Shown: positions 6,594 to 32,177 of the stretch, piece by piece
Layout: every line of letters begins with the position of its first letter
Position numbering within the stretch: position 1 is the stretch's first letter
Sequence record: KY608966
DNA: 53,242 bases
Direction: 5' to 3' (one strand)
Origin: Escherichia phage CF2
Notes under the pieces: model-generated
The model's input: only the letters and a program-made list of their open reading frames with translations
What the model was told of the DNA's origin: nothing
Database searches by the model: none
Position numbers and translations under genes: made by a program

Positions 6594-7309
6594 GCCCAGT
6601 ATACAATAGCACAATTACACTGTCAGCAACCGTAGGAGACGTCAACAAGACTGTTACTGTGGGTTCAACTAACCCGAACCTGTCAGGCGAAGACCTGCTG
6701 CGCCTGGCCAAACGTGCTCTTGAAGATAACGAAGTGACTGGTACTGAAGGCGTCAGCATCGAAATTAACGTCGAAGGATGTCCGCACAGCATCAGTATTG
6801 CTACCTCTTCATTGCCGGATGATGAAACTCGTGAACAGCTGGAGACAGACAAGTTCAACGACGAGCTGGAATATCGCACTGGTGAGATGTTCAGCAATGC
6901 GTTAAACTGGTATCTGTGCAAAGCTTCAGGCTACACCGGTGCTCCTATGTCAGACCGTATGTTAGCTGATATGTCAGCACGTGAAATTGCTAAAGGCTGG
7001 GCGCATGTACAGATGCTACAGGAGCGTATCTGCAAACTGGAAAGCTGCAATAAAGATGCGTCTGAGCTTATTACTGCCTATAAGCGACAGATTAACGACC
7101 TGCAGCAACTAATGGGCAAACGCGCTGAAGAATATGAGGCTGAGATTCGTAGCCTTAACGGTACAGCTGTTGCTAACAACCGTGCTTTCAGCGAAGAGCG
7201 TAAAGCGCTTATCGCCCAGCGTGACGCTGAAAAACGTCGTGCAGACGACCTGGCAGACCGTCTCAACTTTATCCGTAAGCATATGGATGCTATGGAAGGG
7301 GTAATCTGA
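6590..7309 (+). CDS. Hypothetical protein with coiled-coil C-terminus
   Basis: ATG at 6590 overlaps the upstream stop (ATGA); SD AAGGAG. Confidence 0.65.
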   Translation: MSPVYNSTITLSATVGDVNKTVTVGSTNPNLSGEDLLRLAKRALEDNEVTGTEGVSIEINVEGCPHSISIATSSLPDDETREQLETDKFNDELEYRTGEMFSNALNWYLCKASGYTGAPMSDRMLADMSAREIAKGWAHVQMLQERICKLESCNKDASELITAYKRQINDLQQLMGKRAEEYEAEIRSLNGTAVANNRAFSEERKALIAQRDAEKRRADDLADRLNFIRKHMDAMEGVI

Positions 7310-7599
7310 TGGACCTGTTCGATATGGTCGAACATCCTGAAGTAAACAGCTTGGCGGAAGCTAAGCCTTTTAGCTGGGATGAATTCGTAGCAGGCAAACC
7401 TGCTGTAACCCACAACGGGCAGATTGCATATTACGGAGGCCATAGCGAACATCCGATGTGCACTCACCTGTACAACGCTATCACAACCATATCCGACGAA
7501 AACGTTATTAAATACGGAAAAGATGTAATGCCTTTTCTTGTAGATGAGCGCGGTTACTTCGAAGGTAAATGGTTCCCGTTTCTGGTAGAAATGGCCTAA
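7309..7599 (+). CDS. Hypothetical protein (96 aa)
   Basis: ORF track; ATG overlaps upstream TGA; SD GGAAGGGG. Confidence 0.6.
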   Translation: MDLFDMVEHPEVNSLAEAKPFSWDEFVAGKPAVTHNGQIAYYGGHSEHPMCTHLYNAITTISDENVIKYGKDVMPFLVDERGYFEGKWFPFLVEMA

Positions 7600-7715
7600 A
7601 AACCGGATAAATATAAAGGCGTCTAAGCTAGTTCTTCATCTATATAAGCTACTTATTCGCCTTTCTACTGTAGACTTTCTCATCATCTCTCTAGACACTT
7701 CATTTTTATATTCTG

Positions 7716-7744
7716 TTTACTTACTTCGCGTAACTCGTTATAAT
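7716..7744 (+). promoter_or_regulatory. sigma70-type promoter (TTTACT-N17-TATAAT) for the packaging/head genes
   Basis: Hexamers at 7716-7721 and 7739-7744. Confidence 0.55.
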
Positions 7745-7776
7745 CCCGACTATCCGGATTAACGAGGACGATACCA

Positions 7777-8067
7777 ATGGCAAAACCGAAAAAAACCCGT
7801 GAGGCAACAGAAGAGCTGTTGGCCACTATGCGACGTATCCAACTGGACCCGTTGGAAGTTATGCAACGAGCTATCATCCTTGCTGAACGTGAAGACGACT
7901 ATAAAGCAATGATGGATGGTGCGCTTGGTGTTATGCCGTACATGTATCCTAAGCTGAAAGAGTCCGTTGTTAAAGCTGACATCGACCAGAACTTGTCTGG
8001 TAACGGCGTCAACCTGAATATTACAATCGGTGACCAGAAAGTGGTAGACGTTACTGAGGAAGAGTAA
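7777..8067 (+). CDS. Putative terminase small subunit
   Basis: 96-aa ORF immediately upstream of the large terminase; assignment is positional. Confidence 0.4.
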   Translation: MAKPKKTREATEELLATMRRIQLDPLEVMQRAIILAEREDDYKAMMDGALGVMPYMYPKLKESVVKADIDQNLSGNGVNLNITIGDQKVVDVTEEE

Positions 8068-8070
8068 TAA

Positions 8071-9519
8071 ATGAACCTTGACTTTCACCTGCATGACAGA
8101 CAAGGTGCCGCTCTGCAGTCTCAGGCAACTGAGATTCTGTACGGTGGCGCCGCTGGTGGTGGTAAGTCTCACCTTATGCGTGTAATGTCAATTATCATGT
8201 GCTGCATGATACCTGACTTGCAGATTTACCTTTTCCGCCGAAACTATAACGACCTTACGGCTAACCACATGGTTGGCCCCACAAGTTATCCTGCCTTGCT
8301 GGATGGTATGTGCAAAGCTGGCAAGTGCAAGATTAACTACTCGAGCAACACGATTAAATTCTGGAACGGTGCGAACATCAAACTCTGTCACCTCCAGTAC
8401 GAAAAAGATATTTATACCTACCAGGGTGCGGAGATTCACGTTCTGCTGATGGATGAGCTTACTCACTTCACAGAAACGATGTACCGCTTCTTGCGTAACC
8501 GTGTCCGACTCGGTGCTCTTAAAGTCCCTGAGAACTTTTTCCGGCCACTACCACTCATCTTTTGTGGGTCAAACCCCGGTGGTGTTGGTCACAACTGGGT
8601 TAAGCGTACTTTCGTAACTGCTGCTCCTCCGATGAAAATCGTTAAGCAGGATAAACGCGAAGGCGGTATGGCTCGTCAGTACATTCCGGCTAAGATGACT
8701 GATAACCCTACGCTGATGGAAAACGACCCTGACTACGGTGACCGTCTTGAAGGTCTTGGCGACCCGGCGCTTGTTGCGGCGATGAAAGAGGGTGACTGGG
8801 ATATTGTTGCAGGTGGTGCACTAGACGACGTATGGTCAACTAAGTGCATTCTGCCGCGTATGCGTATTCCTAAAGGCTGGACTATCGAACGTTCTCTTGA
8901 CTGGGGATCTACTCACCCGTTCTCTGTTGGTATCTGGGCTATTGCAAATGGTGCCTCGCTTACAGACGACGAAGGCAATGAGTACTTTATTCCGCGTGGT
9001 TCAATTATACGTATAGCTGAATGGTATGGGTGCTCTGAAAAAGAAGCTAACAGGGGTATTAAGCTATCTGCTGCCGAAGTCGCTCAAGGTGTTCTTCGCC
9101 TACAGGAAAATCTGCAGGCTGGTGGCTGGATTCAAAGCAACGTTAATCCTGGTCCGGCAGATAGTCAGATTTATGCGTGCAAAGAAAAAGACGTTGAGAC
9201 TATCGCGAAAAAAATGGAAGACGAAGGCGTAACCTGGGTCAAGGCCGACAAGTCGCAAGGTTCGAGAATAAATGGCTTAGAGCTATTCCGTCAGCTTCTG
9301 AAAAATGTTAAGATGGACGAAACGGAAAAGCCGGGCATTTATTTCATGGAAAACTGTCCAGCAGCCATAAACACGTTGCCGGTTCTGCCGCGTGACAAGA
9401 ACAACACGGAAGATGTCGACACGAACTCTGAAGACCACGTATACGATGATTGTCGTTACATGGTGTTGCGTGGCATCAACCGTTATACTACCAAGCTCAA
9501 AATAAATATGGGACGGTAA
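8071..9519 (+). CDS. terL: Terminase large subunit
   Basis: 482 aa; Walker A GGAAGGGKS near N-terminus; position before portal. Confidence 0.85.
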   Translation: MNLDFHLHDRQGAALQSQATEILYGGAAGGGKSHLMRVMSIIMCCMIPDLQIYLFRRNYNDLTANHMVGPTSYPALLDGMCKAGKCKINYSSNTIKFWNGANIKLCHLQYEKDIYTYQGAEIHVLLMDELTHFTETMYRFLRNRVRLGALKVPENFFRPLPLIFCGSNPGGVGHNWVKRTFVTAAPPMKIVKQDKREGGMARQYIPAKMTDNPTLMENDPDYGDRLEGLGDPALVAAMKEGDWDIVAGGALDDVWSTKCILPRMRIPKGWTIERSLDWGSTHPFSVGIWAIANGASLTDDEGNEYFIPRGSIIRIAEWYGCSEKEANRGIKLSAAEVAQGVLRLQENLQAGGWIQSNVNPGPADSQIYACKEKDVETIAKKMEDEGVTWVKADKSQGSRINGLELFRQLLKNVKMDETEKPGIYFMENCPAAINTLPVLPRDKNNTEDVDTNSEDHVYDDCRYMVLRGINRYTTKLKINMGR

Positions 9520-9520
9520 A

Positions 9521-11083
9521 ATGTCGATAACCCCAAGCAGCACGCCGAACGTCGGATACCAGCGTCCTGAGCTGACTAAGAACGCTGGTAAGTACCGAAT
9601 GATTAAGGACTGCATCGAGGGTCAGGAAGCTGTTAAAGCACGCGGTGATTTCTACTTGCCCCGTCCTGACCCTACGAACTGCACAGAAGAAAACATGATG
9701 CGGTACAATTCGTACTTGCGTCGCGCTGTGTTCTACAACGTACTACAGCGAACTCTTTCGGGTATGACTGGTCTGGTATTCCAGCAGCAGCCTGAGATGT
9801 TGATGCCTGACGATATGGAAGTGCTGAAAGTAAATATCGACGGCGCAGGCATTGGCGCTATTCAGCAAATGCGTAAGTGCTTCAAGTCTGTTCTGGCTTT
9901 TGGTCGCGCAGGTCTGCTGACTGACTTCCCTAAAGCACGTATCGGTGAGTTTGGCGAGTCCATTGGCTTTACCCGTAAAGAGCTGATGGACGGAGATGTA
10001 CAGCCGACTGTAACGCTGTATATGCCATGGCAGATTATAAACTGGCGGGAAGAGTATCGCAATGGTAAAGTGATGCTCACTCAAGTTGTCATTTGCGAAC
10101 AGATACCGGGGGTTACTGATGGCTTTCAGCAAGACTACACACCCGTGTGGCGTCACCTTTACCTGGATGAAGAAGGCAATTGCAACCAGTCTTTGTGGGT
10201 CAATAAGGGCGACAAGAATGCGCAGAACGTCTCCGGTGGTGCGTTGTATGTCACACAAGAAAATGTTGTCTTACGCGACTCCAATGGCTTACCGTTGAAG
10301 TTTATTCCGTTCCAGTTTATTGGTTCTGAAACAAACAGCGCTGAGATTGACCCTCCGCCGATGTACGACTTAGCTGTGCTTAATATTGCACACTACCGTA
10401 ACTCTGCTGACTACGAAGAGTCATGCTTCGTAACAGGTCAACCCACAGTATGGGCGTCTGGTCTTACTGAGGCATGGGTTGAAGATGTTCTGAAGGGTGA
10501 ACTGCGACTCGGTTCGTTTGGTGGTATTCCGCTGCCGGCTAACGCCGCTGTAGGTATTATTCAGACCAACCCTAACACCCAGCCGTTTGAAGCGATGAAG
10601 CAAAAAGAAGCGCAGATGATTGCAATCGGTGCTCGACTGATTCGTGAGAATGGTAAGGTAGAACGACGCGAAGTTGAGATTAAGAATGAAGCGGCGTCTG
10701 AAGCTTCGCTTATCGTAACTGTTGCGCAGAACGTTGAAGCTGCTTATCGTAAGGCAATCGAATGGTGTGGCCTGTTCTACGGACACCATAAAGAAGAAAT
10801 TACGATTAACCTCAGCTACAACTTTATCTATAGCCAGTTGACTTATCAAGAACGTCAGCAGCTGGTTAACGAATGGATTGCCGGTGCTATCACGTTTAGT
10901 GAGATGCGTAGCAATCTTAAACAGGCTGGCATTGCTAAGCTCACCGACGAAGAAGCCAAGAAGCTAATTGATGAAGAGCTGGCTGAACGCGATGCGCGTG
11001 AGGTAGCAAAAGAAGCAGAAAAGAACGCTCAAGCAGCTAAGAACAGCGATGGGCAGGAAAATAATCCAGAAAAAACTGAATAA
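9521..11083 (+). CDS. Portal protein
   Basis: 520 aa, directly after terL, acidic C-terminus; assignment by size and synteny. Confidence 0.75.
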   Translation: MSITPSSTPNVGYQRPELTKNAGKYRMIKDCIEGQEAVKARGDFYLPRPDPTNCTEENMMRYNSYLRRAVFYNVLQRTLSGMTGLVFQQQPEMLMPDDMEVLKVNIDGAGIGAIQQMRKCFKSVLAFGRAGLLTDFPKARIGEFGESIGFTRKELMDGDVQPTVTLYMPWQIINWREEYRNGKVMLTQVVICEQIPGVTDGFQQDYTPVWRHLYLDEEGNCNQSLWVNKGDKNAQNVSGGALYVTQENVVLRDSNGLPLKFIPFQFIGSETNSAEIDPPPMYDLAVLNIAHYRNSADYEESCFVTGQPTVWASGLTEAWVEDVLKGELRLGSFGGIPLPANAAVGIIQTNPNTQPFEAMKQKEAQMIAIGARLIRENGKVERREVEIKNEAASEASLIVTVAQNVEAAYRKAIEWCGLFYGHHKEEITINLSYNFIYSQLTYQERQQLVNEWIAGAITFSEMRSNLKQAGIAKLTDEEAKKLIDEELAERDAREVAKEAEKNAQAAKNSDGQENNPEKTE

Positions 11084-11088
11084 AGCTA

Positions 11089-11117
11089 TTTACTTTCGGT
11101 TTACCTGGCTATATAAT
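11089..11117 (+). promoter_or_regulatory. sigma70-type promoter (TTTACT-N17-TATAAT) before scaffold/capsid genes
   Basis: Hexamers at 11089-11094 and 11112-11117. Confidence 0.55.
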
Positions 11118-11260
11118 CCTTCATGTCAACCGCGCAACAGCCGGCCACGAGAGTCTGCAGGGCTCAGTGGATTTCGGATGGCTGGCTGCGCGGTTTGACC
11201 CAAACCTGTTCGGAGCCCACTTGAGTGGATTGAGCCCCTCTCATATAGGATTGTAAAATT

Positions 11261-11974
11261 ATGGCACTTAAAACAGTTGTAACTGACCTTAACGAAGTTG
11301 ATGAAGGCTTCCGTGGCCTGTATATCAAAGACGACGCGTCCGGTGCGTTTCGTTTGGATGTTGAACCAGACGAAAAAACGCTGAAAGAATTAGAAGACCT
11401 GCGCAAAGAAAAACAGCGTATGGAGCAGCACACCAAAAAACTTCTCGAAGAGAAGAAAAAAGAAGCTGAACGTGCTCGCCTCGCTGAAGAAGAACGCGCA
11501 CGTCGTGAGCGTGATGTTGAATCTCTTGAGCGTTCAATCAAAGAGAAGCATCAGGCTGAACTTGAACAGTATACCAGTCGTCAGGCACAGCTGCAAGCAC
11601 AGCTGGAAGCGCAGATGGTTGATAACATCGCGTTGAACCTGGCTAACCAACTCTCTGACACCCCGGCATTAATTATGCCACACATCAAGGCCCGACTGCG
11701 CGCTCAGGAAATTGATGGTAAGTGGCGTACTATCGTCGTGGATGTTATGGGTAACCCGACTGCTACAACGCCAGATGAGCTAGTGGAGCATATGCGCGCT
11801 GATAAGCAGTTTGCACCTCTTGTGCGTGGAACCAAGGCTGGCGGTGGCGGTGCCAACGGCGGCGGAGCTAATCCTGGTGGGAACGGCGGTGGCGAACAGC
11901 ACACTTTCGGGGGCGGGGATGACCGCATAGCACGTGCTCGTGCTAAAATCCAAAACACACAATGGGGCAAATAA
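11261..11974 (+). CDS. Putative scaffolding protein
   Basis: 237 aa, highly charged coiled-coil (EEKKKEAERARLAEEERARRER), Gly-rich tail; between portal and capsid. Confidence 0.55.
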   Translation: MALKTVVTDLNEVDEGFRGLYIKDDASGAFRLDVEPDEKTLKELEDLRKEKQRMEQHTKKLLEEKKKEAERARLAEEERARRERDVESLERSIKEKHQAELEQYTSRQAQLQAQLEAQMVDNIALNLANQLSDTPALIMPHIKARLRAQEIDGKWRTIVVDVMGNPTATTPDELVEHMRADKQFAPLVRGTKAGGGGANGGGANPGGNGGGEQHTFGGGDDRIARARAKIQNTQWGK

Positions 11975-12955: not shown

Positions 12956-12975
12956 CCCACAAACGGGACTAACAA

Positions 12976-13008
12976 AAGGCGAGCTGACGAGCTCGCCTTT
13001 TTTTATTT
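12976..13008 (+). terminator. Rho-independent terminator after the capsid gene
   Basis: GGCGAGC/GCTCGCC stem followed by TTTTTTTTATTT. Confidence 0.7.
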
Positions 13009-13034
13009 ACACGTATAAAGTTCTGGTATATAAT
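13006..13034 (+). promoter_or_regulatory. Consensus sigma70 promoter (TTTACA-N17-TATAAT)
   Basis: Hexamers at 13006-13011 and 13029-13034, upstream of the gene at 13061. Confidence 0.6.
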
Positions 13035-13060: not shown

Positions 13061-13561
13061 ATGGCATACACACTTGTTGTGGAAGACGGTTCAATTGTTC
13101 CGGGTGCTAACTCGTATGTTAGCACTGCAGAAGTTGATGAGTTTATCACTAACGAAGGTATTCTCATTCAACCAGGAACTGACCCGTACTACCAAGCTGC
13201 CAAAGCAGCTATCCGACTTGATAACCAGTTTAACTGGCTAGGTCGTAAGGTCAGCAAAACACAGAGCATGGCTTGGCCCCGTACTGGCCTCGGTGCATGT
13301 AATGTTGACATCGCTGAGTCTGTAATTCCGCGAGAAGTTAAGCTGGCACAGCTTTATATGATGGCCAGTGTATTGAGCTACGACGGTGAAGAAGGTGTGC
13401 GTAGCGACCAGGCCTTGCGCCGTAAGAAAGTTGGTAACCTGGAGATTGAATACTTCGACTCCAAATCAGGCGTTACCGGTGCAACTGACCTTTGGACGTC
13501 AGACGTCAAGGCCATGCTCAAGCACCTTGTGGGTGCGTCCCTGAGAACGCGGAGAGTATAA
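13061..13561 (+). CDS. Putative head-tail adaptor / head completion protein
   Basis: 166 aa, first gene after capsid; positional. Confidence 0.4.
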   Translation: MAYTLVVEDGSIVPGANSYVSTAEVDEFITNEGILIQPGTDPYYQAAKAAIRLDNQFNWLGRKVSKTQSMAWPRTGLGACNVDIAESVIPREVKLAQLYMMASVLSYDGEEGVRSDQALRRKKVGNLEIEYFDSKSGVTGATDLWTSDVKAMLKHLVGASLRTRRV

Positions 13562-14426: not shown

Positions 14427-14877
14427 CGGTGCATGCATTATTGGTGAAGAGTCTGGTACAGTTGATGGTACGCCGTATGTTTATCTGCGTCCTGGTGATG
14501 CTTATGACTTCGGACCTCCTAGAACCAGACAAGGCTCTGACGGCTTTGAGTACGTCAGCAAGCCAATGATGACAGCTGTACGTATTACAGCTGTCGGTAA
14601 GAATGCTGCTGAGCTAATGCGTAAGCTACACATAGCGCTGGGTAGTTCACCAGCTAAGCAGTTTAACCGTTTACGGCATTATGCAATAACCAAAATATCG
14701 AAGATTGATAATGTCGGTGGTGCTATTGGTGCAGGCTATGCTCAGAAGTCAATGCTGACTGTTGATATTAGCTATGTGCATAAAGTTAAAATTGAGCAAC
14801 CGTACATCTACAAGGTTGACATCACTTGTATGGATGACAACGGTAACAAAGCGACTGGTACAGTAGAGGAACCGTAA
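14350..14877 (+). CDS. Hypothetical virion protein (start uncertain: GTG 14320 or ATG 14350)
   Basis: ORF track 14320-14877; overlaps upstream gene by 76 nt if ATG 14350 is used. Confidence 0.45.
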   Translation: MATTTLQQFSIKDLRELVQKLLTLPDGACIIGEESGTVDGTPYVYLRPGDAYDFGPPRTRQGSDGFEYVSKPMMTAVRITAVGKNAAELMRKLHIALGSSPAKQFNRLRHYAITKISKIDNVGGAIGAGYAQKSMLTVDISYVHKVKIEQPYIYKVDITCMDDNGNKATGTVEEP

Positions 14878-15500
14878 TGGCAACTGAAGTAGACCCGGAA
14901 CTGCAAGCGCAGCTGGATAAGCTAACCACTGCTGTCCAGCTCATTCATGACTTCGGTATGTCAGGCGACCCAAACATCCCTAACCCGGAAGGCGGTGTCA
15001 TACGCACACTCGAAGGCATTAACGCTGCAATCAACGAAGCTATACCAAACTTTGAAAACGCTAACGAAGCTGCTATCCAGGCGCGTGCTGCTCGTGACGC
15101 GGCTATTGCAGCCAAAGAAGCTGCAGAAACGGCAGCTGAACAGGCCACAGTAGCTTCGACGTCAGCAATCTATGAGTACGGCAACGTTGCAAGTGCAGCT
15201 ACAGTGACTATACCAGCTGCGTCTAAAACAATTGTCAGCCTTACTCTTAACCAGCCAAACACCGTAATTAATATCGGTGGTGTATCTGACCCGTCTACTG
15301 TTGCGCGTCAGATTACTATTGCTATTAAGCAAGGCACTGGTTCTAACAAGGTGACTTCTTGGGATCCAAGAATAAAATGGGCCAACAACAGGAAGCCCGT
15401 TCTGTCATTCCTTGTGGGTTACACAGATGTTGTTACGTTGCTGACCTTTGACTCAGGCGCAACTTGGATGGGTTTCTTTAACGGTGGATGGATTAAATAA
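14877..15500 (+). CDS. Hypothetical structural protein with Ala-rich coiled-coil (207 aa)
   Basis: ORF track; SD AGAGGA upstream. Confidence 0.55.
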   Translation: MATEVDPELQAQLDKLTTAVQLIHDFGMSGDPNIPNPEGGVIRTLEGINAAINEAIPNFENANEAAIQARAARDAAIAAKEAAETAAEQATVASTSAIYEYGNVASAATVTIPAASKTIVSLTLNQPNTVINIGGVSDPSTVARQITIAIKQGTGSNKVTSWDPRIKWANNRKPVLSFLVGYTDVVTLLTFDSGATWMGFFNGGWIK

Positions 15501-18457
15501 TGCACACGATGTTGCTTAAAGACGGATCAGACCATCGAGCTAATGTCGAAAGCCTTATCGAAGGTCACCACCATTTTCTTGAGCGCAATACTGGCAGAAC
15601 TGACGACGCTACGCGTCAGCACTATATCTTCAATCCAGAAGGAGTAGTGTCGAACAACCGCCATTTTATTGCACACACCATGATGGAGTATCAACCTAAC
15701 GGTGATGCTCCGTCTGAAAGTCAGTCGCTGCTAATACTCGGCGAAATTCACGCGTACCTTGCTACTAAGGAACAGCGGTACCTTGACAAAGCAATTGAGT
15801 ACTTCAATGCTTACGTCAAGTACTATTACGAGGGGGACCCAATCCCTGATACTCCTCGTCGCTGGATCGCTAACTGGCTTTGTAATGGCAAAGAGCCTGT
15901 GCTAGCCAGCTTCCCAATCAACCCTGATTCACCAACACAAGGCGGCTATAAAAATGTGCCAGTTAAATTTGTTAACGGCAAAGCACAAATCCCTCATGGT
16001 TCTCCTTTCTGGGGCGAGTACCTGGATGTTGCTACTTGGGCCCACAGGGGACACATGGCTTGGCCTGCTATTAATGGTGGTGTCCGTGTTATTAAAAATA
16101 AAGTTGACTGGGACGATATTTACAACAATTATCGCATCACTACCATGCCAGCTGACCCGTGGAATCAGTTAGCCTGGATTGACTGGCCGAGGTATCTGGG
16201 TGAACCAAGCTACACTGTGGACTGGTCAGCAGCTGAACCTCCTGTACATCTCATCGAGTATATTGTTGCATGGACCAATAACAAGATTGGTGTTCTACCT
16301 GGCAAAAACGATGAGCTATGGGGAGGCGAGATTCTTGAGACTGGACTGCCTGACTCTCGCAGAGGTGAGATTCAGCTACGTGACCATACTATCAACGGTG
16401 TGTACCTGCTTAACTATGCTGTTAAGCTTCCTGTTGAACATGGTGGTTATTTGCTTAAGCGAAATGAAGTATGGCACAACAGACCGGTAAACGTTCCATT
16501 GTACGGCGAGCTTCAACGCGGTAATGCTGCTGATGCTGAGTTGTGGTTCTGTGACTGCTGCTATATGCTGTGGCGAATTACTAACGAGCAAAAGTATTAC
16601 AACGCTTGGCAAGCTGTCCTGTTTACACTGGAGGAGTATATTGACATCGATAAACAAGACCAGTTCTTCCGACAAGACACTCACGCGTCGTCTCCGTTTA
16701 CTGATGGCATCTCTTATGATTGGTCTTATCCTGAACTGGCACAAGCTATATATTCACGTGATGAAAATGGTTATATAGTTCTACGTCAGAACGAAAAAGC
16801 TCAATCATCTCTGGAGCAGCAGGCTGTATGGTTTAAGTGTAAGCCAACAGCTAAGATACGTACAGAAGTTGGTGGCAAAGATGATGCTGGTCAGAATATC
16901 AGTGTCAAGGTGGAAATGTACATGAACCGTGAAAAGGTTGACGTCGAGCAAAACATCTATCGTTTTGTCACACAGCTACCTGCTCTTGGTGCTTCACCTG
17001 CTAACTACGACATTCCATTAAGCGATTTTGTCGCAGGTACTAAGCCAGATGGTTCTGAGTATATCTTAGCTGATATTCGTTCATCCACTGACTATGGCAA
17101 TGCCACTACTGCAGTGTCTTACCGTACTGACATACTTGACAACAGACGTGGCAACACTGTCCGTATGACAATACCGGATAGTTCGTCAGGTGCCATTATA
17201 GGCTTTTGGCTACTGGAATCTTCCCAGGCACCTTTAAACTCGCTGACGTATACTTCTACAGGTCCGTTGTGCATCAAAGTAACTGACGCGCAAGGCTGGA
17301 GTTGGGTACGTGATTTACCTGCCGCACCAGGATGGGTAACTCAGCAGATTCGCACCTGGGAGTTCAGGCTGGCGTCATACCAGGAAAACACAGGTACACC
17401 ACCAGCTAGCCCACAATTCGGCGAGATTAAGCAGTTCTCGTTTGTACTGCCTGACGGCGTTAATACGTCGACAAGTATTAGCTGGTACTGTGTGAATGAT
17501 GTTCCGCCTCGCTATAACTGGCCAATTGGTTATACGATTAAGTATCGTCTTACTTTCTCGGCTGATAACCCGTACACAGCTAGGCTTGGCGACTGTACTG
17601 TGCTGGACTATGAGAATGATAACCTTGCTTACACGCCAGGTGTTATTCCGTTCTCCAACATTTATAACCCTGATTCTAAGCAGTTCGATGGTTGGCACGG
17701 TATACCTTACCCTGGCTATCAGTATCCGTTTGTCTTTACGCATGACGATACTGCAGCAGGTACAATCAGGCTGAACAACATGGTTAACTTTTTGTACGAT
17801 TCTCAGCAATGGTACTATAAGAAGTTCGGTCAGCTAGGTCCTGGTGCATCTGCTTTTATCTGGAACCGTTGGGATAACTTTAAATACGGTGTACCTGATA
17901 CGTTTACCATGTATCACTGGGGTAATGGTAGTGCATGGTCAGGTTACCAGCCTCGTGCTTACTTCTCCGCAGCACGTGGATGGTATGAGCTAGTAAACCG
18001 TGGTAAGCCGGTTCCGAGTAAGCTTATTGCTTATGTGGATAACTGGTCAAAATGGTTGCTTGACTTCATGGAAAGGTCAGGAGGTGTGTCGCCTTCTAAC
18101 TTCCCACAAGAAGGTGTTGCTCTGCCAGTCCCTTCAGACTTCACAGGTCACATGTGCGGGCTATGGCTTGCTGGTGCAGCTATGTCAGCCCTTTGTGGGT
18201 CAACAGTATCAGGACTGGATAAGCTGATGGACATGCTTGTCAATGAGCTGGAAGACCATTACGACATAACTGGTATTCCGGGGCATGTAATGGATGGTGG
18301 TTGGTCACCAGCGTTACGCCTTGAAACTGGTTCAGGACCTGAAAGCAACGCCATGTACTATGGTTTTTACTCTGGCGAAATATTACGAGGGTTGGGCTTA
18401 TACCTGCTGTACAAAAACAAAGGGGCTAAAGCAGATATTTATGATTTAGGCCCGTAA
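15500..18457 (+). CDS. Large virion-associated protein (985 aa), possibly with a carbohydrate-active domain
   Basis: Longest ORF; aromatic- and Trp-rich; domain guess is by eye only. Confidence 0.8.
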   Translation: MHTMLLKDGSDHRANVESLIEGHHHFLERNTGRTDDATRQHYIFNPEGVVSNNRHFIAHTMMEYQPNGDAPSESQSLLILGEIHAYLATKEQRYLDKAIEYFNAYVKYYYEGDPIPDTPRRWIANWLCNGKEPVLASFPINPDSPTQGGYKNVPVKFVNGKAQIPHGSPFWGEYLDVATWAHRGHMAWPAINGGVRVIKNKVDWDDIYNNYRITTMPADPWNQLAWIDWPRYLGEPSYTVDWSAAEPPVHLIEYIVAWTNNKIGVLPGKNDELWGGEILETGLPDSRRGEIQLRDHTINGVYLLNYAVKLPVEHGGYLLKRNEVWHNRPVNVPLYGELQRGNAADAELWFCDCCYMLWRITNEQKYYNAWQAVLFTLEEYIDIDKQDQFFRQDTHASSPFTDGISYDWSYPELAQAIYSRDENGYIVLRQNEKAQSSLEQQAVWFKCKPTAKIRTEVGGKDDAGQNISVKVEMYMNREKVDVEQNIYRFVTQLPALGASPANYDIPLSDFVAGTKPDGSEYILADIRSSTDYGNATTAVSYRTDILDNRRGNTVRMTIPDSSSGAIIGFWLLESSQAPLNSLTYTSTGPLCIKVTDAQGWSWVRDLPAAPGWVTQQIRTWEFRLASYQENTGTPPASPQFGEIKQFSFVLPDGVNTSTSISWYCVNDVPPRYNWPIGYTIKYRLTFSADNPYTARLGDCTVLDYENDNLAYTPGVIPFSNIYNPDSKQFDGWHGIPYPGYQYPFVFTHDDTAAGTIRLNNMVNFLYDSQQWYYKKFGQLGPGASAFIWNRWDNFKYGVPDTFTMYHWGNGSAWSGYQPRAYFSAARGWYELVNRGKPVPSKLIAYVDNWSKWLLDFMERSGGVSPSNFPQEGVALPVPSDFTGHMCGLWLAGAAMSALCGSTVSGLDKLMDMLVNELEDHYDITGIPGHVMDGGWSPALRLETGSGPESNAMYYGFYSGEILRGLGLYLLYKNKGAKADIYDLGP

Positions 18458-18463
18458 CCACTA

Positions 18464-18492
18464 TTTACTTAACCGAGGCGCCAGCCTATAAT
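18464..18492 (+). promoter_or_regulatory. sigma70-type promoter (TTTACT-N17-TATAAT) with the -10 inside a hairpin
   Basis: Hexamers at 18464-18469 and 18487-18492; inverted repeat GCGCCAGC/GCTGGCGC flanks the -10. Confidence 0.55.
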
Positions 18493-19163: not shown

Positions 19164-19174
19164 GGAGCTGATTG

Positions 19175-21304
19175 ATGTCGCTTCCACTTAATGAGGTTGT
19201 CGACGTCCAGTTCAGTAAGAGCAACGGGGGTAAAGGTTTTACCCCCAATGTTCCGCTGGAAGGTATAATGCTTTCCAACTACGAGTACTCAATCGTCGCG
19301 GGTGATGACCCTGTTCAGCTAGTTGTGCGTTACATTCCAACCAACGCTACTGAGCGTGGTATGGCATGGAAATCTAGCGACCCGGACGTTATCACTGTTG
19401 ATGAGCTCGGATTTGTGAAGCCACTGGCGGAAGGTGTTGCATACGTGACTGGTACGTCTGTTGACGGCGGTTATACAGTACGGGCAAAGTTTAACATTGC
19501 TCGGGCACCTATCCTTGTTGAATCTGTTACAGTGTCTCCCACAAGTGTGACACTTGAAGAGGGCAAGACTCAACGCCTGACATACACCTATTTACCTGCT
19601 AACGCAGATAATCCTGATTTCTACTGGATTTCAGATGATGAGTCTGTTGCTGTCGTTAGCGACAACGGGCTTGTCACTGCCATTGGAGATGGCGAAACAA
19701 CTGTAAACGTACAGTACGGTGTTGACAGCTCTATATTCGATAGCTGTACAGTAACTGTTATTCCTCCTGTTGTGCACGTTACAGGAGTCGAGTTTCTTAC
19801 TCAGTCACCTCTTAACGTTAATATCGGAAGCACAGCTGGTACTAGTATTCGTATATCGCCAGAAGATGCCACTGACAAAACAGTGACATACGAAAGCAAT
19901 GCACCTACTATAGCAACTGTGGACACTGACGGAAATGTTACTGGTATTGTAGCTGGTAATGCCACTGTTACTGTTAAGACGAATGACGGTGATAAGACTG
20001 ACACTCTTGACATTATAGTCAGGGTGCCTGCTGTAAATGTTACCGGTGTAAGTATTGACGAAGGCGATACAGCTTCCATGGAAGTTGGTGACACTCTTCA
20101 GCTACATGCCACTGTGACTCCTGAAAATGCTACTGACCCATCTGTTGTATGGAGTGCTCCTGTATCAGAAGTTGCGTCTGTTACTGAAGCTGGTTTGGTA
20201 ACCGCTAACGCTGCAGGCTTAATTGATGTTACTGTTATCACTAATGACGGGAACTTTACAGATAGAATCGAGGTTAAAGTTACAGACCCTAGCATCGCAG
20301 TTACGGATGTTGCATGGGCTCCTGACTCTCCGACTAAAGTAAGCGCTGGCCATCAGGTGCAGACTAAAATTGTTATAACACCTGACAACGCAACCAATAA
20401 AAAAGTCAGTTACAATAGCTCAAATCCTGACGCTGTTACTGTTGACACTAACGGAGTTATATACGGTCAATCTCCTGGAACTTCGACTATTACAGTTACA
20501 ACAGACGACGGTGGACTTGAGGCTTCATTTGTAGCTACTTGCACGGAGGTGGCTGTTATTACACCAGATGGTCTTGGTGGTATCCCAATTGGTGGTACTC
20601 AGCAGCTCACTTATACTGTTAGTCCGTCTGACGCTGAGCTGACTAATATTCGTTATGAGTCTGCTGACCCAGCTATTGCAACTGTTGATTCGTCTGGCGT
20701 TGTAACTGGTGTTGCTAGCGGCGGATGTAACATCTGGATTTACGCAACTAGCAATGGCGCTGACATTAGTGCAGCCACTTGGGCACAAATCTCTGAGAAG
20801 GTACAGGTATATCCTCAGTACGCCGAATGGCTTGTGGGTAACACCAAACAGCTTGATGTTGAGATTTATCCGTCGGACTCTAAGAGCGTTACCGTTACTT
20901 ATGAATCGTCAAATGACGCTATCATTAGTATAGATGCAAATGGTTTGATGACTGCTAAGTCTGAAGGTTCAGCAACTATTACTGCTAACGTTGTGATGAA
21001 CGGTGTTGCTGCGTCTGGTACAACATCTCCTTACGTGTCTGAGCTTTCTGTTACTACTGATTCGCTGCCTGCACTTACTGTTGGCAACACGCAGCAGCTG
21101 GTTGTAACTGTTAGACCTGAATACGCTAAGACAGACCCAGGCTATAACATTCAGTATACAACTACAGACGATACTGTCGCTACTGTAAGTACTACCGGTG
21201 TTATTACTGGCGTTGGTAACGGTGGATGTCGTATTGGTGCCACAGTAACTGTGAGAAATGCTACAGCGTCGGACAGCTCTTATCAGTCCGTCGATGCAGC
21301 ATAA
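19175..21304 (+). CDS. Multi-BIG2-repeat virion surface protein (709 aa)
   Basis: At least 7 tandem Ig-like modules; ATG at 19175 with SD AAGGAG (track start 19172 is TTG). Confidence 0.75.
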   Translation: MSLPLNEVVDVQFSKSNGGKGFTPNVPLEGIMLSNYEYSIVAGDDPVQLVVRYIPTNATERGMAWKSSDPDVITVDELGFVKPLAEGVAYVTGTSVDGGYTVRAKFNIARAPILVESVTVSPTSVTLEEGKTQRLTYTYLPANADNPDFYWISDDESVAVVSDNGLVTAIGDGETTVNVQYGVDSSIFDSCTVTVIPPVVHVTGVEFLTQSPLNVNIGSTAGTSIRISPEDATDKTVTYESNAPTIATVDTDGNVTGIVAGNATVTVKTNDGDKTDTLDIIVRVPAVNVTGVSIDEGDTASMEVGDTLQLHATVTPENATDPSVVWSAPVSEVASVTEAGLVTANAAGLIDVTVITNDGNFTDRIEVKVTDPSIAVTDVAWAPDSPTKVSAGHQVQTKIVITPDNATNKKVSYNSSNPDAVTVDTNGVIYGQSPGTSTITVTTDDGGLEASFVATCTEVAVITPDGLGGIPIGGTQQLTYTVSPSDAELTNIRYESADPAIATVDSSGVVTGVASGGCNIWIYATSNGADISAATWAQISEKVQVYPQYAEWLVGNTKQLDVEIYPSDSKSVTVTYESSNDAIISIDANGLMTAKSEGSATITANVVMNGVAASGTTSPYVSELSVTTDSLPALTVGNTQQLVVTVRPEYAKTDPGYNIQYTTTDDTVATVSTTGVITGVGNGGCRIGATVTVRNATASDSSYQSVDAA

Positions 21305-28108: not shown

Positions 28109-28480
28109 ATGCGAACTAGACGACTCGATTCAAACTGGGACTGGAATTTTGGGCGTGGCAGACTTGACTACGCCGATACGTCTGAGTCCATTGAACAACG
28201 CATCGTGCAGATACTCCGCTGTTATACTATGGACTGGGTACATGACCTGGACTATGGCATTGACTGGTTCGGACTAATGGAGAAGCCTGTTCGATGGGCT
28301 GACCTGGAGGCTGCAATCAAGACAGCAATACTTGCGGAGTATGGAGTTAGTTCTATCGAGAGCTTTACCCTAAGCTTCGACCCTGACTCACGTCACGCTG
28401 TTTATTCGGTTGAGGTTAATGATATTTACCACAACACAACCTCTATTAACAGAAGTATTAATTTAACCGGAGAAAACTGA
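28109..28480 (+). CDS. Putative baseplate wedge protein (gpW/gp25-like)
   Basis: 123 aa, between spike-like and J-like genes. Confidence 0.4.
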   Translation: MRTRRLDSNWDWNFGRGRLDYADTSESIEQRIVQILRCYTMDWVHDLDYGIDWFGLMEKPVRWADLEAAIKTAILAEYGVSSIESFTLSFDPDSRHAVYSVEVNDIYHNTTSINRSINLTGEN

Positions 28481-29652: not shown

Positions 29653-30298
29653 ATATCATAAACTACTTATTCAACAGTACGCTGATAAGCCAAAAGCTGT
29701 TGCAACTATTAAGGGCTTCGATGATGCAATTCAGGGTATCTGGGACGGCGCCCAACAAGTTGTTGATAGCCTTAATATCGATAAAGCTTTCGGTAAAGGT
29801 CTTGATAATGTTGCAGCCCGCGTCGGCGCATCTCGTGTTCTCAAGAAAGGCGTAGACCGTAAGTTCTTCGGCTTTACCAACAAAGTACCAGATGTGCTTG
29901 GCTTCGGTGGTTCGTCTGGTAATAAAGGTGGCCCGTTCTATCGCTACGGTGCATCAGTATGGGACCCGGTAATTCTTGACGACATTGACCTGCGTACTTA
30001 CATCAAGATGAAAATCTGGAAGAACATGCAAGACGGTACTATGCCGTATCTAATTGACTTCCTGATTGAATTCTTCGGAATGAATAACTTCGTTATAACT
30101 GACAACGAAGATATGACAATGACTCTGGAGATATACAGTACTCTGACACCACTTAAGCAAGTGCTGATTCAGAACTACGATATACTTCCGCGCCCCACAG
30201 GGGTAAAGATTGAACTTAACACGAGCGTTGACGTTACGGATAGTCTGTACCGTTACGCTACTGTAAACTTACCAGCACAGGTGAATGTATATGGCTGA
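29639..30298 (+). CDS. Putative baseplate / tail-fibre attachment protein
   Basis: 219 aa between J-like gene and tail fibre. Confidence 0.4.
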   Translation: MLMAEYHKLLIQQYADKPKAVATIKGFDDAIQGIWDGAQQVVDSLNIDKAFGKGLDNVAARVGASRVLKKGVDRKFFGFTNKVPDVLGFGGSSGNKGGPFYRYGASVWDPVILDDIDLRTYIKMKIWKNMQDGTMPYLIDFLIEFFGMNNFVITDNEDMTMTLEIYSTLTPLKQVLIQNYDILPRPTGVKIELNTSVDVTDSLYRYATVNLPAQVNVYG

Positions 30299-31625
30299 TG
30301 TACAAACAAGACCCGACAACGACATCTTCGCCAGCTCCGCGGGTACTGGTGAACTGCTGCCGTTCGGTGACCTTGCTCGTGGCTGGGGTGCAACCCTTGG
30401 CTACTCGGAAGGTATTCCTCCGATGGAGTGGTTTAACTTTATCGGTAACCGTACTGACAAAGGTATCCACTACATCCTTCAGCAGGGTGTTGATATATGG
30501 GTAGAAACTGAGACCTACCCGGTTGGTGCACTGGTTAAAGTTAACGCCGACAATATGCTGTACCGTTGTCTGGTGCAGAACATTAATATGCCACCGTCTG
30601 CTAACCCTACTCAGTGGCGCCCTGTTCTCGACCTGACTGCGGCAACTGCTGCAGCACGACAGGTTGGTAAAGCCTCTGGTAACGTAATCCAGGTCGGTGC
30701 ATTTGGGCTAGGTGGCAACGCTGAGGTAGTTACTAATGCTAACAGCATTGTAAACGACGGTATCTACCAGCTTCCAGCGTCAGGTACTGGCGGACCTACT
30801 AACGGCGTTGAGACTGAGATTCTGCATATCAACTGGGATGCGAAAAACGCTTCACAGTGGGGACGCACCAAGGGTAAGCGCGTAATAGCCATGCGCGAGA
30901 AGGTTAATAATACCTGGGGCGGATGGTCATACTCTTACGGGCCTGATAATAAACCTACGGCATCTGAGCTGGGCATTAACCAGGACTTCATCCCTATGGA
31001 TGGTTCTGACTCAATCCGCGGCAACTTAGGTACTGTAGGCTGGTTACATATTGCACGTACTACTTCCGACTTGCTACGTGCTGCTAACTCCGCCGGTGTA
31101 GGTACTGTTGAGTATTCTGGTAACATCGCAGGCGGTACTGCTGTTCAGGAGTTGCTGACTTCAGTTTCTGTAGCGGCTAACAGTAATGTTGTCACTGCTG
31201 CTCGCTGGGGATCTGTGCCTATGTCGCACATCCAGCACATCCTTGTGGCTGGCGGTGCTACACAGATTAACATGGCAGTATGTCGCCCTGGTGGTATTGC
31301 CGACCGCCGTACAGTAGCTTTGCAGGTGGATGGCCTTAACAGCCGAGTAACTACCACAAATAGCTTTATTTTATGTGAGAATGGTGTTAGAGTATATTCA
31401 CCTAACAACCCGCAGCCTATCGATACTTCAGCCGGTAACGTTCGGGGTATTCGACTTGGCGCTCGTATTGCTGCTGGTGTATCCGAGTCAACGTTCTACC
31501 CTGGGCATGTAATGACTGGCTGGCGCTTCGGCAATAAGAAAGAGCTGCGCGGTGGTACATACTGGTCAGCGCCGTTACAGTATTATATCAACGGCACTTG
31601 GATTAACGTAAGCAACGTATCGTAA
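30285..31625 (+). CDS. Tail fibre protein
   Basis: 446 aa, Gly/Thr/Ala-rich, followed by two assembly-chaperone-like genes. Confidence 0.55.
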   Translation: MYMADVQTRPDNDIFASSAGTGELLPFGDLARGWGATLGYSEGIPPMEWFNFIGNRTDKGIHYILQQGVDIWVETETYPVGALVKVNADNMLYRCLVQNINMPPSANPTQWRPVLDLTAATAAARQVGKASGNVIQVGAFGLGGNAEVVTNANSIVNDGIYQLPASGTGGPTNGVETEILHINWDAKNASQWGRTKGKRVIAMREKVNNTWGGWSYSYGPDNKPTASELGINQDFIPMDGSDSIRGNLGTVGWLHIARTTSDLLRAANSAGVGTVEYSGNIAGGTAVQELLTSVSVAANSNVVTAARWGSVPMSHIQHILVAGGATQINMAVCRPGGIADRRTVALQVDGLNSRVTTTNSFILCENGVRVYSPNNPQPIDTSAGNVRGIRLGARIAAGVSESTFYPGHVMTGWRFGNKKELRGGTYWSAPLQYYINGTWINVSNVS

Positions 31626-31634
31626 AGGTTTATT

Positions 31635-32177
31635 ATGACTAAGCATAAGGTGTTCCGTAACTTTACCATGTACCATCCTGAGGTAACAGAAGAGAACGAG
31701 AACATTGTAAATGCTGGTGCAATCTTCCTCAAGGACGAGGAAGGTCGCGACTGGTACAATCTCGCAAAAGAGTTCGCTATCAAATACGAAGGCGCAACGT
31801 TCTTGCAGGTAGATAAGAACGGAGTTGTAATTGCCGCACATACCGACCCGACTATGTTCCATCCTGTGGGCTGCGATATGGTAGTAACATACGACCCGCC
31901 TTTCAACATCTTCGAGACTGTTGGCGAATGGCTGTTCGACGGTAAAGAGTTTACGCTTAACGCACCAATGATGAAGGAGATTGCTCGTGAGCGTAAAGAA
32001 CAAGCTCTGTCCATCGCTTCGTCCAAAGTCAGTGTTTTACGCGACACAGTTGATAGTGGCAATGCTACCGATGAAGAAAAAGAGCTATTTGCTAAATGGC
32101 GTGATTACAGGATTGCTGTCAATCGTCTTGACATTAACCTTGGTTCCGCTATGGTTGTTCCACCTATGCCGGAGTAA
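31635..32177 (+). CDS. Putative tail fibre assembly protein, paralogue 1
   Basis: 180 aa; shares F.NFT.Y.P...DW..LAKE...DPT..FPV.CD with the next ORF. Confidence 0.5.
   Translation: MTKHKVFRNFTMYHPEVTEENENIVNAGAIFLKDEEGRDWYNLAKEFAIKYEGATFLQVDKNGVVIAAHTDPTMFHPVGCDMVVTYDPPFNIFETVGEWLFDGKEFTLNAPMMKEIARERKEQALSIASSKVSVLRDTVDSGNATDEEKELFAKWRDYRIAVNRLDINLGSAMVVPPMPE

What the first reader, a model, noticed from the sequence alone, without database searches (positions are those of the whole stretch)
15500..18457. 985-aa virion protein in the head-tail block, possibly enzymatic
The largest gene sits between neck genes and the Ig-like proteins. It is aromatic- and Trp-rich with a His-rich N-terminal segment, a composition more typical of carbohydrate-active enzymes than of fibres. 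It could be a receptor-binding depolymerase or an ejected internal protein. The call is by eye only and tentative.
Basis: inference. Interest (0 to 1): 0.45.

Follow-up and report, generated by a model that had tools for sequence, protein, structure and literature searches.

The report
Adaptor-mounted sugar-cleaving-type phage tail protein
The largest gene of this Salmonella/E. coli phage encodes a virion protein built around a sugar-cleaving enzyme fold, held on the particle by a small adaptor protein, and it is the best candidate for why related phages need bacterial cellulose to infect, although no enzyme activity has been tested.

The parts
15500..18457 (+). 985-aa gene: member of the phi92 gp141 / PHROG 2871 tail-protein family, with a six-hairpin glycosidase-fold core and two β-rich insertions
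15536..15835 (+). Barrel segment 1 (aa 13-112): helices 13-29, 72-89 and 92-109; holds invariant D69, E73 and Q75 (family consensus TTEGQS; PSESQS in this protein)
   Evidence: DSSP of the model; invariant columns; 34 % of columns are at least 90 % conserved
15836..16519 (+). β-rich insertion A (aa 113-340); carries a ~155-aa extra insert in M7 gp042 and in P0032/P0038/P0055
   Evidence: lower conservation, 18 % of columns at least 90 % conserved; 11 of the 31 SPLA2/SPLA11 differences fall at aa 200-249
16520..16651 (+). Barrel segment 2 (aa 341-384): helices 344-361 and 364-381; invariant D345 and E347 lie in the motif GNAADAE.WF (nt 16523-16546)
   Evidence: best hhalign local match to the BcsZ motif NSASDGD.WM, E=0.045
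16652..17614 (+). β-rich insertion B (aa 385-705); its distal part (aa ~509-704, nt 17024-17611) is a mobile CBM-like β-sandwich
   Evidence: Foldseek domain hits to CBM11 (TM 0.52-0.54) and other CBMs (the aligned query residues are not reported, so assigning the CBM-like domain to aa ~509-704 is inference from the modularity below); PHROG 23426 hit at aa 520-701; duplicated in P0010/16/21/22; stand-alone copy in M7 gp040, E=2e-23
17615..18454 (+). Barrel segment 3 (aa 706-985): helices 752-776, 816-833, 840-859, 883-899, 906-919 and 955-974; conserved Q817/R819, H884 and E960/R963 lie at helix N-termini
14877..15500 (+). 207-aa adaptor gene, translationally coupled (TAATG). N-terminal helices, a long helix (aa 59-97) and a C-terminal β-sandwich (aa 101-206) that is conserved upstream of every family member examined
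12974..13034 (+). Terminator-like hairpin (12974-13001) followed by a promoter-like site (13006-13034); putative start of the neck-adaptor-enzyme transcription unit
   Evidence: consensus scan, 11/12 promoter match; equivalent promoter annotated in BP63. Consensus matches only
18464..18492 (+). Promoter-like site just after the stop codon; putative start of the next unit (Ig-like proteins)
   Evidence: annotated in BP63 and S144

Best explanation
The gene encodes an external, virion-borne accessory protein that targets glycans. Its core is an (α/α)6 six-hairpin barrel of the kind used by inverting glycoside hydrolases (GH8/GH48-like). A conserved pocket is formed by residues at the N-termini of alternate barrel helices (E73, D345, E347, Q817/R819, H884, E960). 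Two β-rich insertions, one a mobile CBM-like β-sandwich, probably add polysaccharide binding. The protein is made together with the 207-aa adaptor encoded just upstream and is mounted by it. The adaptor has a lineage-specific N-terminus and coiled-coil-like helix that dock to the particle, and a conserved C-terminal β-sandwich that holds the enzyme. During infection the module binds, and probably cleaves, a conserved host exopolysaccharide. This gives primary adsorption or passage through the matrix, and the Mu-type tail fibre (30285-31625) then engages LPS. The best substrate candidate is bacterial (pEtN-)cellulose. Shown: the ORF, family membership, the fold, the conserved two-gene cassette, the fusions, and virion presence of the orthologue (published MS). 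Inferred: the adaptor-enzyme contact, the external location in this particular phage, catalysis (about 0.55), and cellulose as the target (about 0.3-0.35).
For: Family and virion: PHROG 2871 matches over the full length. There are 532 phage records with homologues, including phi92 gp141. S144 gp17 is 82 % identical and was detected with 25 peptides in virions; gp16 (the adaptor) was also detected.
Conserved pocket: invariant acidic and polar residues sit in the first 2-6 residues of alternate helices. The barrel segments are more conserved than the insertions. hhalign's best match to a BcsZ profile is GNAADAE.WF~NSASDGD.WM, and the relaxed colinear alignment puts TTEGQS on the catalytic TSEGQS. 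The catalytic residues of BcsZ were verified from PDB mutant entries.
Mounting: the adaptor gene lies directly upstream in Rosemountvirus, phi92, rV5, M7, T7-like Atoyac1 and an SU10-like podophage, with different N-terminal anchors (T7 tail-fibre N-domain; TSP1/gp66 N-domain). Fusions exist to P2 gpI inside a gpW-gpJ baseplate operon and to the NGR-binding RBP gp142.
Cellulose: in a TraDIS screen, bcs insertions reduced susceptibility to Rosemountvirus SPLA2, whose orthologue is 98.2 % identical to the window protein. Erwinia phage M7 needs cellulose and carries the adaptor+enzyme cassette. Neither genome has a detectable GH5/GH48/GH8. The precedent is phage S6, which uses cellulose and carries a GH48 six-hairpin protein plus a GH5 cellulase. 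Salmonella has no NfrB, so NGR cannot be the target here.
Against: No curated GH family matches by sequence. This holds for Pfam on the whole protein, on the barrel with insertions excised, on 46 family members and on 10 remote relatives. NCBIfam and PDB sequence searches also find nothing.
hhalign E-values are only 0.03-0.11, with probabilities of about 1 %, and one run gave a different register.
The GH8a catalytic-base Asp (YDAIR) has no acidic counterpart in the alignment.
I could not inspect model coordinates, so clustering of the conserved residues into one pocket is inferred from helix positions only.
Against cellulose: Rosemountvirus SPLA11 has a 96.9 %-identical orthologue but showed LPS hits, not bcs hits. 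phi92-like and rV5-like phages with homologues infect E. coli K-12; the K-12 strain W3110 is reported not to make cellulose, and I take this to hold for K-12 laboratory strains in general (own knowledge). Seoulviruses with a 47 %-identical homologue depend on O-antigen. The TraDIS and Δbcs phenotypes have not been mapped to any phage gene.
The site of attachment on the Rosemountvirus particle (baseplate or neck) is unknown. The gene sits in the neck operon, unlike in phi92, M7 and P2-like phages.
Confidence: 0.55

Rival explanations
1. Same architecture and mounting, but the barrel is a non-catalytic, lectin-like glycan-binding or purely structural module. On this view it is a receptor-binding or spacer protein that does not cleave anything.
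Against: Acidic residues at the expected catalytic positions are invariant across 46 divergent members: E73, D345, E347 and E960. The barrel is the most conserved part. The top structural neighbours are hydrolases.
Confidence: 0.2
2. It is an active glycanase, but its substrate is another surface glycan (LPS core or O-antigen, colanic acid, PNAG or ECA) rather than cellulose. The cellulose dependence of SPLA2 and M7 would then be mediated by a different protein or be indirect.
Against: The family is 42-50 % identical across phages of Salmonella, Escherichia, Erwinia, Aeromonas and Klebsiella, and in contigs attributed to Pseudomonas and Acinetobacter. This argues against serotype-specific O-antigens or capsules, and against ECA or NGR, which those hosts do not all share (for NGR in Salmonella). 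No alternative cellulase was found in the two cellulose-dependent lineages.
Confidence: 0.2
3. It is an internal, ejected virion protein or a peptidoglycan-degrading enzyme used for cell-wall penetration.
For: The protein is large, present in virions and enzyme-like, and it is encoded away from the baseplate genes in this phage.
Against: In a T7-like phage it follows a protein with the T7 tail-fibre N-terminal domain, after the internal-core genes. It is fused to baseplate gpI, to the external RBP gp142, to the Gp77 fibre-tail adaptor domain and to Big_2 arrays. It has no lysozyme or transglycosylase fold. The phage has its own central spike and endolysin.
Confidence: 0.03
4. It is a non-virion assembly factor, as some GenBank records imply with the label 'tail formation protein'.
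For: Annotation only, in some records.
Against: The orthologue was detected in purified S144 virions with 33 % sequence coverage.
Confidence: 0.02

Closest known systems
phi92 gp141 (with gp140), rV5 gp042 (with gp043), PVP-SE1 gp050, S144 gp17 (with gp16): PHROG 2871 'tail protein'
   Same: Full-length homologues (29-82 % identity), each with the same upstream adaptor gene. gp141 is listed as a putative glycosidase in a review citing Schwarzer 2012. Bas62 annotates its copy as 'lateral tail fiber protein with several glycosidase domains'. For S144 gp17, HHpred hinted at a hydrolase and the protein is in virions.
   Different: In phi92, rV5 and M7 the cassette lies in the baseplate/fibre module. 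Here and in S144 it closes the neck operon. No member has been characterised biochemically or placed in a cryo-EM map; the 2026 phi92 structure left fibres I and II unassigned and did not consider gp141.
Erwinia phage S6 gp094 (GH48) and gp095 (GH5 cellulase), with cellulose as first receptor
   Same: A phage-borne (α/α)6 barrel glycosidase-type protein in a phage that needs host cellulose. GH48 is among the structural neighbours of the window protein.
   Different: S6 gp094 is a bona fide GH48 (Pfam 1.5e-198). The window family matches no GH HMM. hhalign against gp094 gives only E=0.031 and is unstable between runs, and BLAST finds nothing. S6 is an N4-like podovirus with no gp140-like adaptor detected.
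GH8 / clan GH-M enzymes: BcsZ (3QXF), CelA (1CEM), CPF_2247 (3REN)
   Different: These are 330-400-aa periplasmic or secreted single-domain enzymes. The phage protein has about 550 aa of β-rich insertions inside the barrel, lacks the YDAxR base motif, and fails the Pfam GH8 model. From memory, it also fails the strict PROSITE GH8 signature.
Adaptor-mounted or branched tailspike systems (CBA120 TSP1-4, G7C gp66/gp63.1, K1-5/SP6 gp37-type adaptors)

Membership tests
phi92 gp141-like tail protein family (PHROG 2871) | Full-length sequence homology to family members | tested here: met
   PHROG 2871 E=0, aa 3-980; 42.6 % identity and 96 % coverage to phi92 gp141, with 520 records covering at least 80 % of the query; 254 representatives in the exhaustive search
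phi92 gp141-like tail protein family (PHROG 2871) | Directly preceded by a gene with the gp140-like C-terminal β-sandwich domain | tested here: met
   BLASTP 3e-19 to 5e-34 against the upstream genes of phi92, Atoyac1, rV5, L008 and M7
phi92 gp141-like tail protein family (PHROG 2871) | Component of the mature virion | not testable with these tools
   Literature only: S144 gp17 (82 % identical) was detected by ESI-MS/MS with 25 peptides
Glycoside hydrolase family 8 (Pfam PF01270, clan GH-M) | (α/α)6 barrel fold | tested here: met
Glycoside hydrolase family 8 (Pfam PF01270, clan GH-M) | Significant match to the family HMM or profile | tested here: not met
   No Pfam hit for the whole protein, the barrel-only construct, 46 members or 10 remote relatives; hhalign E=0.045-0.11, probability about 1 %
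Glycoside hydrolase family 8 (Pfam PF01270, clan GH-M) | Catalytic acid Glu in an SEGQ-type motif, and the A-S-D-x-D motif on the next inner helix | tested here: inconclusive
   E73 (TTEGQS consensus) and D345/E347 (AADAE.W) are invariant. They align with BcsZ E55 and D116/D118 only in a relaxed, statistically weak alignment. No 3-D superposition was possible
Glycoside hydrolase family 8 (Pfam PF01270, clan GH-M) | Catalytic base Asp of the YDAxR motif (GH8a) | tested here: not met
   The aligned position is non-acidic. BcsZ D243 was verified as the mutated residue in 7F82
Glycoside hydrolase family 8 (Pfam PF01270, clan GH-M) | Hydrolysis of β-1,4-glycans | not testable with these tools
   Requires an enzyme assay
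Glycoside hydrolase family 48 (as in phage S6 gp094) | Match to PF02011 or to S6 gp094 | tested here: not met
   No Pfam hit; no tblastn hit; hhalign E=0.031 on one motif pair but not reproducible with the barrel-only profile. Fold similarity only
Trimeric β-helix tailspike depolymerases | Right-handed parallel β-helix catalytic domain | tested here: not met
Ejected internal virion proteins | Encoded among internal-core genes, or carrying a transglycosylase/lysozyme or membrane-spanning segment | tested here: not met
   In T7-like Atoyac1 it lies after internal virion protein D and the tail-fibre-domain adaptor. It has no such domains. It is fused to external baseplate and RBP modules
Adaptor-mounted tailspike systems | Separate adaptor protein with a virion-anchor domain and a docking domain | tested here: met
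Adaptor-mounted tailspike systems | Physical adaptor-cargo complex on the particle | not testable with these tools
   Needs co-purification, AF-multimer or cryo-EM. Only synteny, overlapping stop/start codons and co-detection in S144 virions are available

The most novel reading that the evidence does not exclude
The gp141-like proteins would be a previously unrecognised glycoside-hydrolase family, distantly GH8/GH48-like (clan GH-M), that acts as a phage-borne cellulose-binding cellulase. Mounted by a plug-in adaptor, it would be the missing phage determinant behind the cellulose dependence reported for Rosemountvirus SPLA2 on Salmonella and Kolesnikvirus M7 on Erwinia. It would be spread as a two-gene cassette across myoviruses and podoviruses (532 phage records). 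Its role would have gone unnoticed because the standard receptor screens use E. coli K-12, which (own knowledge; reported for W3110) makes no cellulose.
Probability: 0.3. Interest if true: 0.72.

Novelty: new member of a known kind. Interest (0 to 1): 0.5.

Why it matters
Virion-borne glycan-degrading proteins decide whether phages can reach cells inside capsules and biofilms, and they are sought as anti-biofilm enzymes. This family is widespread (phi92-, rV5-, phAPEC8-, FelixO1-related, jumbo, T7-like and SU10-like phages), unusually conserved, and still uncharacterised. Even the 2026 phi92 structure could not say which proteins form two of its three fibre sets. This analysis provides four things:
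- a confident fold;
- a defined candidate active site (E73, D345, E347, E960) for mutagenesis;
- a modular adaptor+enzyme picture that could be used for phage engineering;
- a concrete, cheap-to-test link to two published but unexplained cellulose-dependence phenotypes.
If the cellulose link holds, cellulose, a major Salmonella, E. coli and Erwinia biofilm polymer, would be a far more common phage receptor than is currently thought.

Tried and rejected
- Pfam, NCBIfam and PDB sequence searches on the whole protein found nothing usable. The only hit was an insignificant GH76 hairpin match.
- Excising the β-insertions to expose the barrel to Pfam gave no hits even at E up to 10.
- Scanning 46 members and 10 remote relatives for a bridging GH family gave only scattered sub-threshold GH47/127/76 hits.
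- hhalign against BcsZ with 2 sequences gave a different, insignificant register. With a 111-sequence BcsZ profile the expected motif register appeared, but only at E=0.045. I therefore do not file the protein under GH8.
- hhalign against S6 gp094 (GH48) gave E=0.031 and was not reproducible with the barrel-only profile. Rejected as evidence of membership.
- Full-length Foldseek hits (Cry toxins, Vip3, IBDV VP2, EngBF) have TM about 0.1 and reflect β-sandwich pieces only. Ignored.
- Comparing SPLA2 with SPLA11 to map the cellulose phenotype to a gene was uninformative, because both proteins are about 97 % identical.
- The P0043 C-terminal Big_2 extension against the window's Big_2 protein shows only generic repeat similarity. 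It is not used as a Rosetta-stone link.
- A search for an in-window paralogue of the adaptor N-terminus, to locate its docking partner, found nothing significant.
- The paper on Rosemountvirus SD286 'gp38' concerns a 123-aa protein, not this gene.
- The φTE and Bas63 cryo-EM papers gave no placement of a homologue.
- The Schwarzer 2012 and Knecht 2022 primary papers are not held in the library.
Full report
**Observation.** The window is a near-complete genome of a BP63-like Rosemountvirus. It is 98.7 % nucleotide-identical to Salmonella phage BP63 over the gene. It is the longest ORF in the window. The protein is rich in aromatic residues (W 3.65 %, Y 6.4 %, F 3.55 %) and has 8 His in its first 60 residues. 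Downstream lie two Big_2 Ig-like proteins, the sheath, the tube, the tape measure and a baseplate ending in a Mu-type tail fibre with two chaperones. Upstream lie head-tail connector genes and a neck/tail terminator. The immediate upstream gene (14877-15500, 207 aa) is not a neck gene but a fibre-like protein, and its TAA stop overlaps the ATG of the 985-aa gene (TAATG). Consensus scans suggest one transcription unit running from a promoter-like site at 13006-13034 to the end of the 985-aa gene, with the next promoter-like site at 18464-18492 (comparable features are annotated in BP63 and S144).

**Which family it belongs to.** Pfam, NCBIfam and a sequence search of the PDB find nothing. PHROGs matches the whole protein to phrog_2871, "tail protein". 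Homologues that are 45-50 % identical over the full length are abundant in metagenomes and prophages. A tblastn of GenBank phages finds 532 records. These include phi92 gp141 (42.6 % identity, 96 % coverage), rV5 gp042 (29 %), phAPEC8-like phages, phiEa21-4/M7-like Erwinia phages, 240-380-kb jumbo phages, and small podophages such as the T7-like Aeromonas phage Atoyac1, where the gene is annotated "glycosidase superfamily protein". An exhaustive HMMER scan of 1.84 billion representative proteins finds only 254 relatives at E up to 1e-3, so this is a compact family.

The literature already treats members as putative glycosidases. A review citing Schwarzer et al. 2012 lists gp141 as "glycosidase". 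BASEL phage Bas62 annotates its copy as a "lateral tail fiber protein with several glycosidase domains". For the sister-genus phage S144, the authors noted an HHpred hydrolase hint for ORF17 and detected gp17 (111 kDa, 25 peptides, 33 % coverage) and gp16 in purified virions. S144 gp17 is 82 % identical to the window protein, and gp16 is 77 % identical to the upstream 207-aa protein. No member has been assayed. The 2026 phi92 cryo-EM study could not assign two of the three fibre sets and did not consider gp141.

**Is it a member of a known GH family?** I tested this several ways, and the answer at sequence level is no. Pfam finds nothing in any of the following:
- the barrel after excising the insertions, even at E up to 10;
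- 46 individual family members, where only scattered insignificant GH47/127/76 hits appear;
- 10 of the most remote relatives, where the best hit is a sub-threshold GH76 match.

A family profile searched against PDB sequences gives only an E=0.069 hairpin match to a GH76.

By eye, the invariant motifs resemble the GH8 signatures. The family consensus TTEGQS (E73) resembles BcsZ TSEGQS (acid E55), and GNAADAE.WF (D345, E347) resembles NSASDGD.WM. I confirmed the BcsZ sequence and its catalytic residues from the PDB entries 3QXF, 3QXQ (E55Q) and 7F82 (D243A). hhalign against two BcsZ sequences gave a different, insignificant register (E=0.11). Against a 111-sequence BcsZ profile, the best local match was exactly the AADAE/ASDGD motif. 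A relaxed alignment was colinear and also paired the two Glu motifs, but with E=0.045 and a probability of about 1 %. The GH8a base (YDAIR) aligned to a non-acidic position. Against the bona fide GH48 of phage S6 (Pfam 1.5e-198), hhalign paired NAADAE...DKFFRQ with NAPDAE...DKYFRQ at E=0.031, but a barrel-only profile did not reproduce this.

I conclude that the protein is GH8/GH48-like in fold and has suggestive motifs, but it is not demonstrably a member of either family. What can be said positively is this. The residues invariant across 46 sequences that include phi92, rV5 and Atoyac1 members (E73, D345, E347, R819, E960), together with near-invariant Q817 and H884, all sit within the first 2-6 residues of alternate barrel helices. 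In six-hairpin glycosidases that is the face carrying the active site (established knowledge). The barrel segments are also markedly more conserved than the insertions. I had no access to model coordinates, so the clustering of these residues into one pocket is inferred, not shown.

**How it is mounted.** The upstream small gene is part of the unit. Its C-terminal ~100 residues are homologous to the gene directly upstream of the large gene in every context examined:
- phi92 gp140, 3e-19;
- rV5 gp043, 2e-17;
- Atoyac1_09, 4e-20;
- an SU10-like podophage contig, 5e-34;
- Erwinia phage M7 gp041, 8e-18.

Natural fusions point the same way. P0065 carries the P2 gpI baseplate domain at its N-terminus and sits in a gpW-gpJ-gpI operon. 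P0105 ends in the podophage GP4 fibre-tail adaptor domain. P0119 is fused to a segment 51 % identical to phi92 gp142. gp142 is the neighbour of gp141 and the identified NGR-glycan receptor-binding protein, with the GMSHY motif. All of this places the family on the outside of the tail and argues against an internal ejected protein. Where the adaptor docks on Rosemountvirus particles (baseplate or neck) cannot be decided here. The cassette lies in the neck operon in this phage, and I found no paralogue of the adaptor N-terminus in the window.

**What it may act on.** The family's conservation across phages of Salmonella, Escherichia, Erwinia, Cronobacter, Klebsiella, Vibrio and Aeromonas, and in contigs attributed to Pseudomonas and Acinetobacter, argues for a widely shared glycan rather than a serotype-specific one. 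Maffei et al. 2021 drew the same inference for the conserved part of the Vequintavirinae fibre locus. Two published host-genetics results then become relevant.

First, in a TraDIS screen of S. Typhimurium, insertions in yhjU/L/N/Q/R/S (cellulose synthesis) reduced susceptibility to the Rosemountvirus SPLA2. The authors proposed cellulose as its receptor and did not name a phage protein. The window protein is 98.2 % identical to the SPLA2 orthologue.

Second, Erwinia phages S6 and M7 require cellulose (Δbcs). S6 carries a GH48 protein and a verified GH5 cellulase. M7 has neither, but it carries the adaptor+enzyme cassette: gp041 and gp042, with gp042 46-58 % identical to the window protein. The window likewise has no detectable GH5/GH48/GH8. 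Salmonella has no NfrB, so the NGR glycan cannot be the target in Salmonella phages. The E. coli K-12 strain W3110 is reported not to make cellulose. I take this to hold for K-12 laboratory strains in general (own knowledge), so K-12-based receptor screens could not have seen a cellulose dependence.

The cellulose hypothesis is therefore attractive and testable, but it is circumstantial. SPLA11, with a 96.9 %-identical orthologue, gave LPS rather than bcs hits. Homologue-bearing phages plate on K-12. Seoulviruses with a homologue depend on O-antigen. No phenotype has been mapped to this gene.

**Verdict.** [quoted passage not shown] is right at the level of fold and orthology. "Ejected internal protein" is not supported. 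Catalysis remains unproven. The gene is a near-identical copy of known Rosemountvirus genes and a member of an already catalogued, already suspected, but uncharacterised family, so it is a new member of a known kind. This analysis adds a confident domain map, a candidate active site, the recognition of a portable adaptor+enzyme cassette with informative fusions, and a specific link to two unexplained cellulose-dependence phenotypes.

Noticed in passing
window 14877-18457 vs GenBank PP583539.1: A record named 'Listeria phage 220426122051' (host L. monocytogenes) is about 97 % nucleotide-identical to this Salmonella/E. coli Rosemountvirus. The host label looks doubtful and may reflect contamination or mislabelling.
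   Followed up: no
GenBank MG065676, MG065690, MG065655, MG065654 (hits H74, H110, H113, H114): Several 'Campylobacter phage' records (A116, A135, C2, C15) carry rV5-like E. coli phage tail genes that score like Vequintavirus records. The host and organism labels are probably wrong.
   Followed up: no
window 14877-15500: The adaptor gene is annotated 'diguanylate cyclase/phosphodiesterase (GGDEF & EAL domains)' in the swi3, IntR and BEC1-17 records. Pfam finds no GGDEF or EAL domain at E up to 0.1, and the model is a helix plus β-sandwich. The annotation appears unfounded.
   Followed up: partly
window 13061-13561: The gene called head-tail adaptor Ad1 by RefSeq/PHROG matches Pfam DnaT_2 ('putative DnaT-like ssDNA binding protein') at 2.3e-45 over its whole length. 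The name of that Pfam family may be misleading for phage connector proteins.
   Followed up: no
window 19172-21304: The 710-aa protein with eight Big_2 stretches varies in length. The SPLA11 orthologue is 622 aa and only 83 % identical, which makes it the most divergent structural protein between cellulose-dependent SPLA2 and LPS-dependent SPLA11. It is an alternative candidate for their phenotypic difference.
   Followed up: partly
L015 (Erwinia phage M7, NC_041978) 31143-31745; window 17024-17611: The β-sandwich at aa ~509-704 of the 985-aa protein also occurs as the C-terminus of a separate M7 tail protein, gp040 (30 % identity, E=2e-23). It is duplicated in tandem in homologues P0010/16/21/22, so it is a mobile CBM-like module.
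   Followed up: partly
L008 (SRR10874396 contig) 6691-11364: An SU10-like podophage encodes a single 1557-aa protein that fuses a gp141-like enzyme to a gp142-like NGR-binding domain (NCTSP_N + TIM barrel, GMSHY motif). In phi92 the two are neighbouring genes.
   Followed up: yes
P0337 (remote homologue, 996 aa): Its N-terminal ~105 residues give a sub-threshold match to Phage_min_tail, a lambda gpM-type minor tail protein (E=8.6e-5, 23 bits against a 39-bit cut-off). This may be another anchoring context, in a siphovirus-type tail tip.
   Followed up: no
window 28109-28480: A 2026 paper reports that a 123-aa 'gp38' of Rosemountvirus SD286 inhibits adsorption and may be an RBP. The only 123-aa structural ORF here is the gp25/sheath-initiator-like baseplate protein. 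If it is the same gene, the RBP assignment would be surprising.
   Followed up: no
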